Origin: Bacteriophage P2
Sequence record: NC_001895.1
Strand: one strand, 5' to 3'
Length of the DNA: 33,593 bases
Shown: positions 22,792-26,280 of the stretch, in pieces
Layout: each line of letters starts with the position of its first letter
Position numbering within the stretch: the stretch's first letter is position 1
The notes under the pieces: generated by a model
The model's input: only the letters and a program-made list of their open reading frames with translations
Told to the model about the DNA's origin: nothing
Databases searched by the model: none
Program-made: the position numbers and the translations under genes

Positions 22792-23954
22792 TGCTGGATG
22801 CGCTGACATTTGATGCAGGCAGTACGCTGACGCCGGATTACATGCTGATGCTCGACAGCAGGGATATTACCGGCAATATCAGCGACCGTCTGATGAGCAT
22901 GACCCTGACGGATAACCGGGGCTTTGAGGCTGACCAGCTTGATATTGAACTGAACGATGCCGACGGGCAGGTCGGGCTGCCGGTTCGTGGCGCTGTCCTG
23001 ACGGTGTATATCGGCTGGAAAGGTTTTGCCCTGGTATGCAAAGGGAAATTTACCGTTGATGAGGTTGAACACCGGGGCGCACCGGATGTAGTCACCATCC
23101 GCGCCCGGAGTGCAGATTTTCGCGGGACGCTCAATTCCCGCCGGGAAGGCTCCTGGCATGACACCACGCTCGGTGCGATTGTTAAGGCGATAGCCACCCG
23201 TAACAGGCTGGAAGCCAGTGTCGCTCCGTCACTGGCCGGAATAAAAATTCCACACATCGACCAGTCGCAGGAGTCTGATGCGAAATTCCTGACCCGTCTT
23301 GCAGAACGCAACGGCGGTGAGGTGTCGGTAAAAATGGGAAAACTGTTGTTTCTCAAAGCGGGGCAGGGAGTGACGGCCAGCGGTAAAAAAATCCCGCAGG
23401 TCACCATAACCCGCAGCGACGGCGACCGCCATCATTTTGCGATTGCTGACCGTGGAGCCTACACCGGTGTAACGGCAAAATGGCTACACACTAAAGACCC
23501 GAAGCCGCAAAAGCAGAAGGTAAAACTGAAACGCAAAAAGAAAGAGAAACACCTGCGCGCACTGGAGCACCCGAAAGCGAAACCGGTCAGGCAGAAGAAA
23601 GCGCCTAAAGTACCGGAAGCGCGTGAAGGTGAATACATGGCCGGTGAGGCTGACAACGTTTTTGCCCTGACCACGGTATATGCCACGAAAGCGCAGGCCA
23701 TGCGCGCCGCTCAGGCGAAGTGGGATAAACTGCAACGGGGCGTTGCGGAGTTCTCTATCAGCCTGGCTACCGGTCGGGCAGATATTTACACGGAAACACC
23801 GGTCAAAGTGTCTGGCTTTAAGCGCGTCATAGACGAGCAGGACTGGACAATCACTAAGGTGACACATTTTCTGAATAATAGCGGCTTCACGACGTCCTTA
23901 GAGCTTGAGGTCAGGCTTTCTGATGTGGAGTACGAAACAGAAGATGATGAGTGA
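22791..23954 (+). CDS. D: Tail protein D (late gene D)
   Basis: 387-aa ORF overlapping the U stop; contains a Lys-rich low-complexity insert. Confidence 0.85.
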   Translation: MLDALTFDAGSTLTPDYMLMLDSRDITGNISDRLMSMTLTDNRGFEADQLDIELNDADGQVGLPVRGAVLTVYIGWKGFALVCKGKFTVDEVEHRGAPDVVTIRARSADFRGTLNSRREGSWHDTTLGAIVKAIATRNRLEASVAPSLAGIKIPHIDQSQESDAKFLTRLAERNGGEVSVKMGKLLFLKAGQGVTASGKKIPQVTITRSDGDRHHFAIADRGAYTGVTAKWLHTKDPKPQKQKVKLKRKKKEKHLRALEHPKAKPVRQKKAPKVPEAREGEYMAGEADNVFALTTVYATKAQAMRAAQAKWDKLQRGVAEFSISLATGRADIYTETPVKVSGFKRVIDEQDWTITKVTHFLNNSGFTTSLELEVRLSDVEYETEDDE

Positions 23955-24035
23955 TGTTTTTGTTTTATCTGTTTGTTTTGTAAGGATAAATTAACTAAAA
24001 TGGCACCATCAACAAAACCGGAAGAGGTGCTCGCG

Positions 24036-24254
24036 ATGTTTCATTGTCCTTTATGCCAGCATGCCGCACATGCGCGTACAAGTCGCTATATCACTGACAC
24101 GACAAAAGAGCGTTATCATCAGTGCCAGAACGTGAATTGCAGCGCCACGTTCATCACTTATGAGTCGGTACAGCGATACATCGTGAAGCCGGGAGAAGTC
24201 CACGCCGTAAGGCCGCACCCGTTGCCATCAGGGCAGCAAATTATGTGGATGTAA
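24036..24254 (+). CDS. ogr: Late-gene transcription activator, Cys4 zinc finger
   Basis: ATG 24036 gives 72 aa (MFHCPLCQHAAH...CQNVNC...); C-x2-C ... C-x4-C motif; position between D and attP. Confidence 0.85.
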   Translation: MFHCPLCQHAAHARTSRYITDTTKERYHQCQNVNCSATFITYESVQRYIVKPGEVHAVRPHPLPSGQQIMWM

Positions 24255-24264
24255 TTACAAACAG

Positions 24265-24291
24265 AAAGCCCCTCAGTCGAGGGGCTTTTTT
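24265..24291 (+). terminator. Rho-independent terminator after ogr
   Basis: Stem AGCCCCTC (24267-24274) / GAGGGGCT (24279-24286), 4-nt loop AGTC, followed by T-run 24286-24291. Confidence 0.75.
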
Positions 24292-24293
24292 GT

Positions 24294-24490
24294 CGATGTG
24301 GTCAATGTGTGGACGTGACCAGAAATAAATCCTTTTATTTCAATTTATTGTACGTAAAAAATAAGCCCGTGTAAGGGAGATTTAGGGTGTCACCAGTAGG
24401 GGCTTTCAACGGTACAATGCGGGTTTGAGCGGCATAAATTACCACTGAAAGCCCTTAAACGTTACTCTACTGTGGACACTGTGTGGACAC
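24294..24490. other. attP: Phage attachment site attP: core around 24356-24382 flanked by arm-type integrase binding repeats
   Basis: Core AAAAAATAAGCCCGTGTAAGGGAGATT at 24356-24382; direct repeats TGTGGACA at 24471 and 24483 and related TGTGGACG/TGTGGTCA at 24308/24297; right-arm repeats overlap the 3' end of int. Confidence 0.7.
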
Positions 24491-25475
24491 TCTCGGCCTC
24501 AGTACCACCTCTTAGCGGATTAAGAGAAATGGCGTCCTGAAGGTACTCTGGCGCAAAATGAGCGTAAACCATAGTTTGCTCAATCCGCGTGTGACCTAGT
24601 ATCCGTTGTAGCGTGATAATACTTCCTCCATTAATCATGAAATGAGTGGCAAAGCTGTGCCTTAGTGCATGTGTGGCTTGCCCCATTGGCAAATCCGGTT
24701 TTATTGCTTTCATTGTTCGTCTGAAGCGAGGGTAATCAGCATCAGGGAATAAAAAACCTCGTTTGTTATCCGCGATCATTTTGGCAACAGCCTCTGAGAT
24801 CGGGACGGTGCGTGGTTTGTTTGTTTTCGTTTTAACAAACGTGACGCGGTTATGGATGATATTTTCTGCTTTCAAACGAGCTGCTTCTCCCCAACGTGCT
24901 CCTGTACTCAGGCAAAGAATCGCAATCTTTTTATTGTCGCCGTCAAGTGCTGCAAGCAGTAAGGCAATTTCTTCCTGTGTTAGATAGCCTGTTTCTGGTT
25001 TTTCCTCCTTAAGCCTTTTTGTCCCTCTGATAGGGTGCTCACCAAAGAATAACTCCGCTTCAATCAGGGCTGTAAACATGCCGCTAATACATGTTAAATC
25101 ACGATTGATACTCGAAGGTTTAATACCCTGACTTCTTCGGGTGGCGCAGTACTGGCTGATAAGCGATTTCGTAATTTGAAATGCGCATGGGTCATTCGTT
25201 ATTTTTGTGAAGATTTCAATTTTTCCAAGATTAGATTTCCCATGCTCTTCGTGTTTACCCTTTAAATCCCACCAGATCTGTGTCAGCTCCGACAGACGTC
25301 GCTTGTCTGTTGGTTTTGATAGCCATTCTTTATTGTGGTGGTTGTACAACGTGTATTTCTCGAAAGCGACAGCTTCGCTTTTCTTATCAAACTTCCTACG
25401 GATGCGTTTTCCATTACGTCCAGTAGGGCGGATGTCCACTTCATATCGACCATCATCGAGTTTTTTGATTGCCAT
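24462..25475 (-). CDS. int: Tyrosine integrase
   Basis: 337-aa ORF, ATG at 25473-25475 with GGAGGG RBS; C-terminal catalytic signature ...HALRHSFATHF...LGHTRIEQTMVYAHF. Confidence 0.9.
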   Translation of the reverse strand: MAIKKLDDGRYEVDIRPTGRNGKRIRRKFDKKSEAVAFEKYTLYNHHNKEWLSKPTDKRRLSELTQIWWDLKGKHEEHGKSNLGKIEIFTKITNDPCAFQITKSLISQYCATRRSQGIKPSSINRDLTCISGMFTALIEAELFFGEHPIRGTKRLKEEKPETGYLTQEEIALLLAALDGDNKKIAILCLSTGARWGEAARLKAENIIHNRVTFVKTKTNKPRTVPISEAVAKMIADNKRGFLFPDADYPRFRRTMKAIKPDLPMGQATHALRHSFATHFMINGGSIITLQRILGHTRIEQTMVYAHFAPEYLQDAISLNPLRGGTEAESVHTVSTVE

Positions 25476-25590
25476 CAGAAAACCCTCCGAGTGGTGTGTT
25501 TTTTTGCGACTACTAATCGCTTTTTTCGTGGTGGCTGAAATTTAGCCACCAATAGTAGGCACTTGTGATGAATATATTCACGATGAATTG

Positions 25591-25890
25591 TTAACCAGTC
25601 TTTTGACCGGAGTGGGGCGACGTTGTTTCGTTTTGCCCAAAGTGTGCGAGAGCGGGCGCAATTTGCCCGGACTCAGGAGCGATCTGATTGGTCATGAACC
25701 ATAAAGTGTATTTGGTGAATTGTGGGGTCTGCAGGATGTTCATCATGACATCTGTTGGAGGTGTTGAACGACCACTTTCATAGTAACTCAGCGTGCCATA
25801 CGGAACCCCTGTTAAATCAGCAAGTTGTTGTCTGCTCAAATACTCTGATTTTCGCATTAAGACTATCTTCTCGCTTATCGTGTTTGACAT
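25591..25890 (-). CDS. C: Immunity repressor C (helix-turn-helix)
   Basis: 99-aa ORF with HTH-like segment LSRQQLADLTGVPYGTLSYYESG; divergent from cox. Confidence 0.85.
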   Translation of the reverse strand: MSNTISEKIVLMRKSEYLSRQQLADLTGVPYGTLSYYESGRSTPPTDVMMNILQTPQFTKYTLWFMTNQIAPESGQIAPALAHFGQNETTSPHSGQKTG

Positions 25891-26004: not shown

Positions 26005-26280
26005 ATGAGCAAGCAAGTAACACTCATGACTGATGCGATTCCTTATCAGGAGTTCGCAAAACTAATAGGAAAATCGACAGGAGCGGTTCGTCGGATGATC
26101 GATAAAGGAAAGCTGCCTGTAATTGATATGACCGATCCACAATCAGCTTCAGGTCGTGCAGGTGAATATTGGGTATACCTTCCGGCATGGAATAACGGAC
26201 TAAAACTGGCTTATGAAAGCCGCCCTAAAGAGATTCGTGACGGCTGGTTGATGTGGTTAGGTCTCGGTGAACCACGTTAA
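26005..26280 (+). CDS. cox: Cox: excisionase / directionality factor and repressor of the C promoter
   Basis: 91-aa first gene of the rightward early operon, opposite C. Confidence 0.85.
   Translation: MSKQVTLMTDAIPYQEFAKLIGKSTGAVRRMIDKGKLPVIDMTDPQSASGRAGEYWVYLPAWNNGLKLAYESRPKEIRDGWLMWLGLGEPR

What the first reader, a model, noticed from the sequence alone, without database searches (positions are those of the whole stretch)
24294..24490. attP architecture: 27-bp core flanked by TGTGGACA-type arm repeats, right arm overlapping the int 3' end
The core candidate AAAAAATAAGCCCGTGTAAGGGAGATT (24356-24382) lies between the ogr terminator and int. Two tandem TGTGGACA copies at 24471 and 24483 sit within the last codons and stop of int, and two related copies (TGTGGTCA, TGTGGACG) lie at 24297-24315. 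Such direct arm-type repeats on both sides of a core are the expected integrase arm-binding sites. The overlap with the int C-terminus implies integration alters or separates int from its downstream sequence.
Basis: partly seen in the sequence, partly recalled or inferred. Interest (0 to 1): 0.5.

Follow-up and report, generated by a model that had tools for sequence, protein, structure and literature searches.

The report
Phage P2 attachment site attP

Summary
The 27-bp core is at 24356-24382. Two exact TGTGGACA copies lie at 24471-78 and 24482-89, and two one-mismatch copies at 24297-304 and 24308-315. All four are on the + strand, and each pair is spaced 11 bp. In 1000 simulated sequences, four same-strand copies within 200 bp occurred once, and two such pairs never occurred.

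Prophage junctions in E. coli, Shigella and E. ruysiae break exactly at the two core edges. An unoccupied site carries the identical 27 bp. So the core is the common core of attP, attB, attL and attR.

Eight att modules whose integrases are only 50-80% identical to this one (seven compared on each arm) keep two 11-bp-spaced direct repeats in the arms. In several, the motif changes in parallel on both arms. Held literature gives the P2 arm-site consensus as tgTGGaCa.

The integrase is 100% identical over residues 46-337 to PDB 5c6k.

Two corrections. The repeats lie in the last nine sense codons of int, not in the stop codon. Integration leaves int intact, because the core ends 79 bp past the stop.

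Extra context: the host site is the 3' end of the cyaR small-RNA gene.

Verdict: already known, low interest.

The parts
24036..24254 (+). ogr, the late-gene activator. It is the left neighbour of attP and ends up next to attR in the prophage.
   Evidence: Pfam PF04606 Ogr_Delta, E 1.1e-21. Annotated ogr/ogrK in matching phage and E. coli records.
24265..24288 (.). G+C-rich hairpin between ogr and the P arm. It looks like a terminator on both strands, so it could end ogr (+) transcripts and, in the unintegrated phage, int (-) transcripts.
   Evidence: Perfect 10-bp inverted repeat I4. Terminator-like on the minus strand. Folds at -20.3 and -21.3 kcal/mol on the two strands, z -5.3 and -5.6.
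24297..24304 (+). P-arm arm-type Int site 1, TGTGGTCA.
   Evidence: Conserved in register in other P arms. Consensus tgTGGaCa in PMC3448106.
24308..24315 (+). P-arm arm-type Int site 2, TGTGGACG, 11 bp after site 1.
24322..24350 (+). A/T-rich dyad (GAAATAAA/TTTATTTC) followed by an IHF-like site, TTTCAATTTATTG, at 24338-24350.
   Evidence: One mismatch to WATCAANNNNTTR. An IHF-like site with at most 1 mismatch sits at the same offset (+48 to +50 from the arm start) in 5 of 8 P arms compared. IHF is required for P2 integration (PMC7581858, citing Sylwan 2010). Binding was not tested here.
24356..24382 (.). 27-bp common core (O), the region of strand exchange. It is identical to the host attB, which is the loop, 3' stem half and U-tract of the cyaR sRNA terminator.
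   Evidence: Junction mapping. Rfam RF00112 CyaR_RyeE covers the empty site and attR at 100.7 bits.
24383..24470 (.). P' arm spacer with cox-box-like sequences. It includes an 18-nt inverted repeat (24397-24414 and 24440-24457) that carries two facing TGAAAGCCC boxes.
   Evidence: 7 sites with at most 2 mismatches to TTAAASNCM against about 2.4 expected from the window average, and 2 sites with at most 1 mismatch. Inverted repeat I1. PMC3936717 reports six cox boxes facing two ways in attP. The individual boxes were not matched to the published figure.
24471..24478 (+). P'-arm arm-type Int site 1, TGTGGACA, inside the int ORF.
24482..24489 (+). P'-arm arm-type Int site 2, TGTGGACA, 11 bp after site 1, inside the int ORF.
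24462..25475 (-). int, a heterobivalent tyrosine integrase of 337 aa. Its last 9 sense codons run through the P' arm-type sites.
   Evidence: ORF. Pfam PF24624 Int_N and PF00589 Phage_integrase. 100% identical over residues 46-337 to PDB 5c6k.

Best explanation
The region 24297-24489 is the attachment site attP (P-O-P') of coliphage P2 or a near-identical Peduovirus.

Mechanism, shown or inferred:
- The adjacent gene encodes a heterobivalent tyrosine integrase. Its N-terminal domain binds the arm-type repeats TGTGGNCN. There are two per arm, 11 bp apart, all in one orientation. Its core-binding and catalytic domains bind the 27-bp core.
- IHF is inferred to bend the A/T-rich P arm at about 24338-24350, so that arm-bound Int can reach the core.
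- Strand exchange with the identical 27 bp at the host site inserts the phage. The host site is the 3' end of cyaR, between yegR and trhP/yegQ.
- The products are attL (host flank, core, P' arm, int) and attR (ogr, P arm, core, cyaR body). attR rebuilds a complete cyaR gene.
- For excision, Cox is reported to bind the cox boxes of the P' arm (24383-24470).

The overlap of the P' repeats with the last codons of int comes from tight packing in this lineage. It is not a conserved part of the design.

Shown here: the core boundaries, the four att sites, the conservation and co-variation of the repeats, and the identity of Int.

Taken from literature or inferred: physical binding of Int, IHF and Cox, and the order of events.
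For: 1. Junctions. Of the E. coli genomes, 2083 of 5426 match the region. Int-side matches start at query 256/257 (window 24355/6). Ogr-side matches of the K-12-type remnant end at query 283 (window 24382).
2. All four att sites were read directly. attL and attR come from remnant L003, attB from the empty site L101, and attP from the window. The core is identical in all four and the flanks swap as expected.
3. Seventy-seven IMG/VR prophage ends with this int all carry the core (at most 2 mismatches) and diverge from the phage P-arm sequence at its edge. They include a second, unrelated flank (L055, L059; also E. ruysiae L115).
4. The core occurs exactly in Escherichia, Shigella, Enterobacter hormaechei and about 12 Kluyvera genomes. 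The cyaR body is on one side in every case except the one attL (L115).
5. The clustering and 11-bp phasing of the repeats are far beyond chance.
6. In att modules whose Int is only 50-80% identical, with different cores, two direct repeats 11 bp apart occur on each arm. The motif changes in parallel on both arms: TGTAGACA in phiT5282H, CGTGGACA in P88_4B11, TGTGGACA in fiAA91-ss and FSL SP-004.
7. Literature: PMC3448106 describes the arm sites, the consensus and N-domain recognition. PMC3936717 describes the cox boxes in attP and attL.
8. Int carries the Pfam integrase domains and is 100% identical to PDB 5c6k over residues 46-337.
Against: - No binding experiment can be run here, and the primary footprinting papers (Yu and Haggard-Ljungquist 1993) are not held.
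- Pfam does not recognise the first 60 residues of Int as an arm-binding domain.
- The cox-box consensus is short and degenerate, so that part of the anatomy rests mainly on the literature.
- One relative, ev239, has its P' repeats inverted or palindromic rather than direct. The layout is therefore not invariant.
- The P2 reference record is not in the phage collection. The best hit is 98.7% identical over 601 bp. Naming the window 'P2' rests on the 100% match of Int to PDB 5c6k and on my memory that the P2 genome is 33,593 bp.
Confidence: 0.96

Rival explanations
1. The right-hand TGTGGACA pair is only a by-product of a repetitive peptide at the Int C-terminus (VHT/VST). The left-hand pair is a chance resemblance, and neither binds Int.
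For: The right pair lies in coding sequence and gives the repetitive tail SVHTVSTVE. The 8-mer is not enriched genome-wide.
Against: In Kp4849-1, fiAA91-ss, FSL SP-004 and phiT5282H the same DNA pair lies 5-29 bp downstream of the int stop codon. The DNA is therefore conserved and the peptide is not. The motifs co-vary between arms. Two phased pairs never arose in 1000 simulations. The literature names these as the arm sites. In one lysogen (L007) a spacer substitution changes Int residue 332 but leaves both 8-mers intact.
Confidence: 0.01
2. The repeats are real protein-binding sites, but for another phage protein such as Cox or the C repressor. Int would recognise only the core.
For: Cox also binds 10-11-bp-phased repeats in attP. 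No binding data could be generated here.
Against: The cox-box consensus TTAAA(G/C)NC(A/C) is unrelated to TGTGGACA. The repeat motif tracks the integrase type: tgTGGaCa in P2-type and tgccGCCActt in 186-type Int, together with discriminating N-domain residues (PMC3448106). Repeats on both arms around a core are the signature of heterobivalent integrases.
Confidence: 0.02
3. The 27-bp identity is not the crossover region. It would be a shared sequence retained for another reason, for example a cyaR terminator fragment captured by the phage, with exchange happening elsewhere.
For: The core is a piece of a host sRNA terminator.
Against: Phage and host sequences switch exactly at the two edges of the 27 bp in every junction read. 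This holds with two unrelated left flanks and a conserved right flank. That pattern is what conservative exchange inside the identity predicts. The exact cleavage positions within the 27 bp were not determined.
Confidence: 0.01

Closest known systems
Bacteriophage P2 attP (POP') with P2 Int, IHF and Cox. Sources: Yu, Bertani and Haggard-Ljungquist 1989; Yu and Haggard-Ljungquist 1993 (recalled from memory; not held). Summarised in PMC3448106 and PMC3936717.
   Same: Everything tested matches:
- the position between ogr and int;
- a 27-bp core shared with the host site;
- two direct arm-type repeats per arm, consensus tgTGGaCa;
- an IHF-like site in the ogr-side arm;
- cox boxes in the int-side arm;
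- Int 100% identical to the crystallised P2 integrase fragment (PDB 5c6k).
   Different: Nothing found. This appears to be the same object, not a relative.
Bacteriophage lambda attP (P1, P2, P'1-3 arm sites; C/C' core sites; IHF, Xis and Fis sites)
   Same: - A heterobivalent tyrosine integrase with arm-type sites on both sides of a core.
- An IHF bend between arm and core.
- A directionality factor that binds phased repeats in one arm.
- int lies next to the P' arm, so integration separates int from sequences beyond the core. In lambda that sequence is sib.
   Different: - The lambda core identity is 15 bp and lies between gal and bio.
- Lambda arm sites number 2 + 3 and have a different consensus.
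- Xis binds the P arm (attR), whereas P2 Cox binds the int-proximal arm (attL).
- Lambda int does not overlap its arm sites.
- P2 int is transcribed from the lysogenic promoter and cox from the lytic one (PMC2951348).
att sites of other P2-like phages (WPhi/L-413C type, fiAA91-ss type, P88, 186, HP1)
   Same: - The same gene order: ogr or another left neighbour, then attP, int, C, cox.
- Paired 11-bp-phased arm repeats.
- A conserved P-arm layout with an IHF-like site at a fixed offset.
   Different: - Different cores and host targets.
- Variant arm motifs: TATGGACR, TGTAGACA, CGTGGACA; 186 type tgccGCCActt.
- In about half of them the P' repeats lie downstream of the int stop rather than inside the ORF.

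Membership tests
P2-type attP (Peduovirus heterobivalent tyrosine-integrase attachment site) | An adjacent tyrosine integrase with core-binding and catalytic domains. | tested here: met
   PF24624 Int_N (E 1.3e-24) and PF00589 (E 8.7e-22). 100% identity over residues 46-337 to PDB 5c6k.
P2-type attP (Peduovirus heterobivalent tyrosine-integrase attachment site) | A common core identical in attP and attB and present at both prophage junctions, with flanks exchanged at its edges. | tested here: met
   attP, attB (L101), and attL and attR (L003) were read side by side. BLAST break points fall at 24355/6 and 24382. 77 IMG/VR prophage ends and 21 genome loci agree.
P2-type attP (Peduovirus heterobivalent tyrosine-integrase attachment site) | At least two direct arm-type repeats on each side of the core, consensus tgTGGaCa. 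| tested here: met
   Four sites at 24297, 24308, 24471 and 24482, same strand, 11-bp pairs. Beyond chance. Definition taken from PMC3448106.
P2-type attP (Peduovirus heterobivalent tyrosine-integrase attachment site) | Int physically binds the arm and core sites. | not testable with these tools
   Needs EMSA or footprinting. The primary papers are not held. Indirect support comes from co-variation of the motif on both arms across integrase lineages.
P2-type attP (Peduovirus heterobivalent tyrosine-integrase attachment site) | An IHF site in the P arm between the arm-type sites and the core. | tested here: met
   Met at the sequence level only. TTTCAATTTATTG at 24338-24350 has 1 mismatch to WATCAANNNNTTR. 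An IHF-like site with at most 1 mismatch sits at the same offset in 5 of 8 P arms.
P2-type attP (Peduovirus heterobivalent tyrosine-integrase attachment site) | Cox boxes TTAAA(G/C)NC(A/C) in the int-proximal arm. Six are reported, facing two ways. | tested here: inconclusive
   7 sites with at most 2 mismatches in 88 bp against about 2.4 expected, and 2 facing sites with at most 1 mismatch. The consensus is too degenerate to assign six boxes without the published figure.
Integration into the 3' end of a structured small-RNA gene with regeneration of the gene (as for tRNA and tmRNA targets) | attB overlaps the 3' end of an RNA gene, and the phage core restores it at one junction. | tested here: met
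   Rfam RF00112 CyaR_RyeE is full length at 100.7 bits at both the empty site (L101 1263-1348) and attR (L003 3775-3860). The core covers the last 24 model positions plus 3 nt.

The most novel reading that the evidence does not exclude
The present-day E. coli and Shigella attB is itself a fossil attR. The yegR-side flank is a decayed copy of the P2 P arm, 75-76% identical over 50-55 bp in the same register to the core. It keeps an exact TCGATGTGGTCAATG that includes arm-type site 1. If that relic still binds the Int N-domain, the preferred host site would not be a 'simple' attB. That could contribute to the strong preference for this site, or alter attL excision geometry, compared with hosts such as E. 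ruysiae whose flank is unrelated.
Probability: 0.1. Interest if true: 0.35.

Novelty: already known. Interest (0 to 1): 0.08.

Why it matters
The finding re-derives from raw sequence a classic, experimentally characterised recombination site, so it has little discovery value. It does show that the first-stage reader can recognise an attP architecture correctly.

The side observations are more useful to a specialist, though probably not new in substance:
- The host target is the terminator end of the cyaR sRNA gene and is rebuilt on integration.
- The E. coli flank looks like a worn-down P arm.
- The int ORF reads through the arm sites in only some lineages.

Tried and rejected
- The primary footprinting and regulation papers are not in the held library: J Bacteriol 175:1239, J Bacteriol 175:7848 (PMC206961), J Virol 68:4220 (PMC236345) and De Lay and Gottesman (PMC2620814). 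The supplement of PMC3448106 with the arm-site alignment is not held either. Int, IHF and Cox binding is therefore cited second-hand.
- The search for related loci with Int in IMG/VR returned only 99-100% identical copies. These were useful for junctions but not for diversity. Diversity came from tblastn against the phage collection.
- Pfam found no arm-binding domain in Int residues 1-60, even at E up to 10.
- I first took the end of the tblastn match as the int stop in Kp4849-1 and placed its repeats inside the ORF. Translation showed they lie 5 and 16 bp past the stop. tblastn had also extended past the annotated stop in fiAA91-ss (match to 1717, CDS end 1681).
- I considered that the core might act as a terminator for int. 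On the int strand in attP the 5' stem half is missing and only a 3-bp stem forms, so I rejected this.
- A possible third arm-like site, TGTGGATG at 24244-24251 (D3), has 2 mismatches and lies in conserved ogr codons. I did not pursue it.
- Literature searches for an explicit statement that the P2 attB is the cyaR 3' end found none in the held library. I recall it being noted in the sRNA literature but could not verify that.

Full report
**What is in the sequence**

Reading 23800-25800 and listing ORFs gives this order:
- ogr (24036-24254, +);
- a G+C-rich hairpin (24265-24288);
- the feature under study;
- int (24462-25475, minus strand, 337 aa);
- the C repressor (25591-25890, minus strand);
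- cox (26005-26280, +).

Pfam assigns Ogr_Delta, Int_N plus Phage_integrase, HTH_3 and Phage_Cox to these four proteins. Int is 100% identical over residues 46-337 to PDB entry 5c6k, 'Integrase'. The region is 98-98.7% identical to several Peduovirus genomes. No 100% record is in the phage collection. I name the window P2, or a near-identical phage, on three grounds: the Int identity, the gene order, and my memory that the P2 genome is 33,593 bp, which is the window length.

**Check of the observation**

The core AAAAAATAAGCCCGTGTAAGGGAGATT is at 24356-24382. TGTGGTCA is at 24297-24304 and TGTGGACG at 24308-24315. All four are on the + strand, and both pairs are 11 bp start to start, which is one helical turn.

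Over the whole window the 8-mer with at most 1 mismatch is not enriched (16 found, 26.6 expected). However, the only two exact copies are neighbours, and 4 of the 16 sites fall within 193 bp. In 1000 Markov simulations, at least 4 same-strand sites within 200 bp occurred at frequency 0.001. Two pairs spaced 10-11 bp never occurred.

The int stop codon is 24462-24464. The right-hand repeats sit in the codons for S-V-H-T-V-S-T and do not reach the stop.

**The core is the recombination core**

A 601-bp query across the site matched 2083 of 5426 complete E. coli genomes.
- Matches on the int side start at query 256/257, which is window 24355/24356.
- Matches on the ogr side in the K-12-type ogrK remnant end at query 283, which is window 24382.

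A small remnant in strain Z226-5 (L003) holds both junctions, and strain JNEC-KY177 (L101) has the empty site. Placed side by side, attP, attB, attL and attR share the identical 27 bp and swap flanks at its edges.

Among 80 IMG/VR contigs with this int, the 77 with downstream sequence all carry the core (at most 2 mismatches) followed by host-type flank rather than the P arm. That includes a second, unrelated flank (L055, L059).

A scan of one genome per species found the exact core in Escherichia, Shigella, Enterobacter hormaechei and about a dozen Kluyvera genomes. E. ruysiae carries a complete prophage with attL (L115) and attR (L117).

**The arms**

Held literature states that P2-type integrases bind a core and two arm sequences. 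[quoted passage not shown]

I tested this independently on att modules whose Int is only about 50-80% identical to this one and whose cores differ.

| Module | P arm (ogr side) | P' arm (int side) |
|---|---|---|
| fiAA91-ss, FSL SP-004 | TGTGGACGctaTGTGGACA | TGTGGACActaTGTGGACA |
| phiT5282H | TGTAGTCAagaTGTAGACG | TGTAGACAagaTGTAGACA |
| P88_4B11 | TGTGGTCAttgCGTGGACA | CGTGGACActgCGTGGACA |
| WPhi/L-413C type | as in P2 | TATGGACGcatTATGGACA |
| Kp4849-1 | at the far end of the record, not read | TGTGGACAtaaTGTGGACA |
| 705R2 | not in the stretch read (host flank) | GATGGACAgttTATGGACA |

The 11-bp spacing holds throughout, and in several modules the motif changes in parallel on both arms. 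That is what one DNA-binding domain reading both arms predicts. One relative, ev239, has inverted or palindromic P' copies, so the layout is not absolute.

**Other parts of the site**

The P arm has a conserved register: repeat, 3 nt, repeat, about 9 nt, ATAAATCCWTTTAT, then an IHF-like site. In this window that site is TTTCAATTTATTG at 24338-24350, with one mismatch to WATCAANNNNTTR. An IHF-like site with at most 1 mismatch is at the same offset in 5 of 8 P arms. IHF is needed for P2 integration (PMC7581858, citing Sylwan 2010).

Between the core and the P' repeats there are 7 sequences with at most 2 mismatches to the cox-box consensus TTAAA(G/C)NC(A/C), against about 2.4 expected. Two facing TGAAAGCCC boxes lie within an 18-nt inverted repeat. 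PMC3936717 reports six cox boxes facing two ways in attP, and Cox action at attL. That fits Cox sites lying in the int-proximal arm. I could not assign the six boxes individually.

**The overlap with int**

All the integrases compared share a C-terminal motif, LNP(L/V) followed in most by (K/R/G)GG, and then diverge.
- In P2, P88_4B11, 705R2 and the WPhi type, the ORF reads on through the P' repeats. In P2 the tail is TEAESVHTVSTVE.
- In Kp4849-1, fiAA91-ss, FSL SP-004, phiT5282H and ev239, the ORF stops first, and the repeats lie 5-29 bp downstream.

So the DNA sites are the conserved element, and the overlap is a lineage-specific read-through. It is not a conserved part of the design in these relatives.

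Integration does not alter int. The core ends 79 bp beyond the stop, and six lysogens encode a full 337-aa Int with 0-2 substitutions. In one of them (L007) a change in the 3-nt spacer alters residue 332 but leaves both 8-mers intact.

Integration does move the P arm and the hairpin 24265-24288 away from int. That hairpin folds strongly on both strands (z -5.3 and -5.6) and scores as terminator-like on the int strand. In the free phage it could end int transcripts, while in the prophage int would read into host DNA. That step is inference. A 1994 paper on P2 int regulation exists (reference 45 in PMC11789052), but I could not read it.

**What the host site is**

The sequence to the right of the core at attB and attR is conserved across genera. 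Rfam identifies it, together with the core, as the CyaR/RyeE small RNA (RF00112). The match is full length at 100.7 bits, both at the empty site (L101 1263-1348, minus strand) and at attR (L003 3775-3860). On the cyaR strand the core reads AATCTCCCTTACACGGGCTTATTTTTT. That is the loop, the 3' half of the terminator stem and the U-tract. The phage therefore carries a copy of the sRNA gene's 3' end and rebuilds the gene on integration, as tRNA-targeting phages do. I recall this link being noted in the sRNA literature but found no explicit statement in the held library.

**A fossil arm in the host flank**

In E. coli and Shigella, the yegR-side flank of attB resembles the phage P arm in the same register to the core. 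With the core excluded:
- L101: 41 of 55 identical, E 2e-6;
- Escherichia sp. MOD1 (L122): 38 of 50 identical, E 8e-8.

The flank includes an exact TCGATGTGGTCAATG. The second repeat is destroyed. E. ruysiae, Enterobacter and Kluyvera have unrelated left flanks. The simplest reading is that today's E. coli attB descends from the ogr-side end of an older P2-like prophage that was deleted down to its P arm. The K-12 ogrK remnant would be an earlier stage of the same decay. Whether the relic has any function is unknown.

**Verdict**

The feature is the attP of phage P2, characterised experimentally decades ago. Novelty: already known. Interest: low.

Noticed in passing
window 24356-24382; L101 1260-1348; L003 3772-3860: The host attachment site is the 3' end of the cyaR/ryeE sRNA gene. 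The 27-bp core equals the loop, the 3' terminator stem half and the U-tract. Rfam RF00112 is full length (100.7 bits) at both the empty site and attR, so integration regenerates the gene.
   Followed up: yes
L101 1187-1259; L122; L004 about 1430-1501 (the yegR-side flank of attB and attL): The E. coli and Shigella flank left of attB is a decayed copy of the phage P arm. It is 75-76% identical over 50-55 bp in the same register, and keeps an exact TCGATGTGGTCAATG that includes arm-type site 1. The preferred attB therefore looks like a fossil attR. E. ruysiae, Enterobacter and Kluyvera flanks are unrelated.
   Followed up: partly
window 24465-24491; L094-L100, L011 (int 3' ends): The int ORF reads through the P' arm-type repeats in P2, P88_4B11, 705R2 and WPhi-type phages. 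It stops 5-29 bp before them in Kp4849-1, fiAA91-ss, FSL SP-004, phiT5282H and ev239. The C-terminal tail of P2 Int (…SVHTVSTVE) therefore looks like a by-product of the DNA sites.
   Followed up: yes
window about 24342; L010, L011, L013 about 2243: Many P2-like phages and prophages are 98% identical to the window through ogr and the P-arm repeats, and then diverge abruptly at about 24342, inside the IHF-like site. Beyond that point they have a different core and a 53%-identical int. This is a mosaic joint inside attP. These phages pair P2's P-arm sites (TGTGGTCA/TGTGGACG) with TATGGACR sites in their own P' arm.
   Followed up: partly
window 24397-24414 and 24440-24457: An 18-nt inverted repeat (83% complementary) lies just downstream of the int stop, in the cox-box region. 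It forms a 15-bp stem on the int-strand RNA with no U-tract after it. It may simply reflect cox boxes that face each other.
   Followed up: no
L094, L096, L097, L099 (between the two arm pairs): Four other att modules share the core-region sequence caccatccctgtcttcccccacatgatgtggggg followed by a T-run. This also looks like an intrinsic terminator hairpin, suggesting that terminator ends are a recurrent target of P2-type integrases.
   Followed up: no
L103 and L121 (left of the core): E. coli ECDA1023 and Kluyvera intermedia carry attR junctions with a P arm only about 80% identical to P2. The arm still has two 11-bp-spaced repeats: AGTGGTCAatgTGTGGACA and TGTGGTAAatgCGTGGACA. L081 has a similar diverged arm and a core with two substitutions, at core positions 13 and 15.
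   Followed up: no
L002 (E. coli 13TMH22 prophage): A P2 prophage at this site has IS3 inserted in int. It also has an IS26-bounded block carrying aac(3)-IIe and oqxAB that replaces its tail end.
   Followed up: no
window 24244-24251: A third arm-like 8-mer, TGTGGATG (2 mismatches), overlaps the last ogr codons, 53 bp upstream of P-arm site 1. It is conserved wherever ogr is conserved, so it is probably coding coincidence.
   Followed up: no
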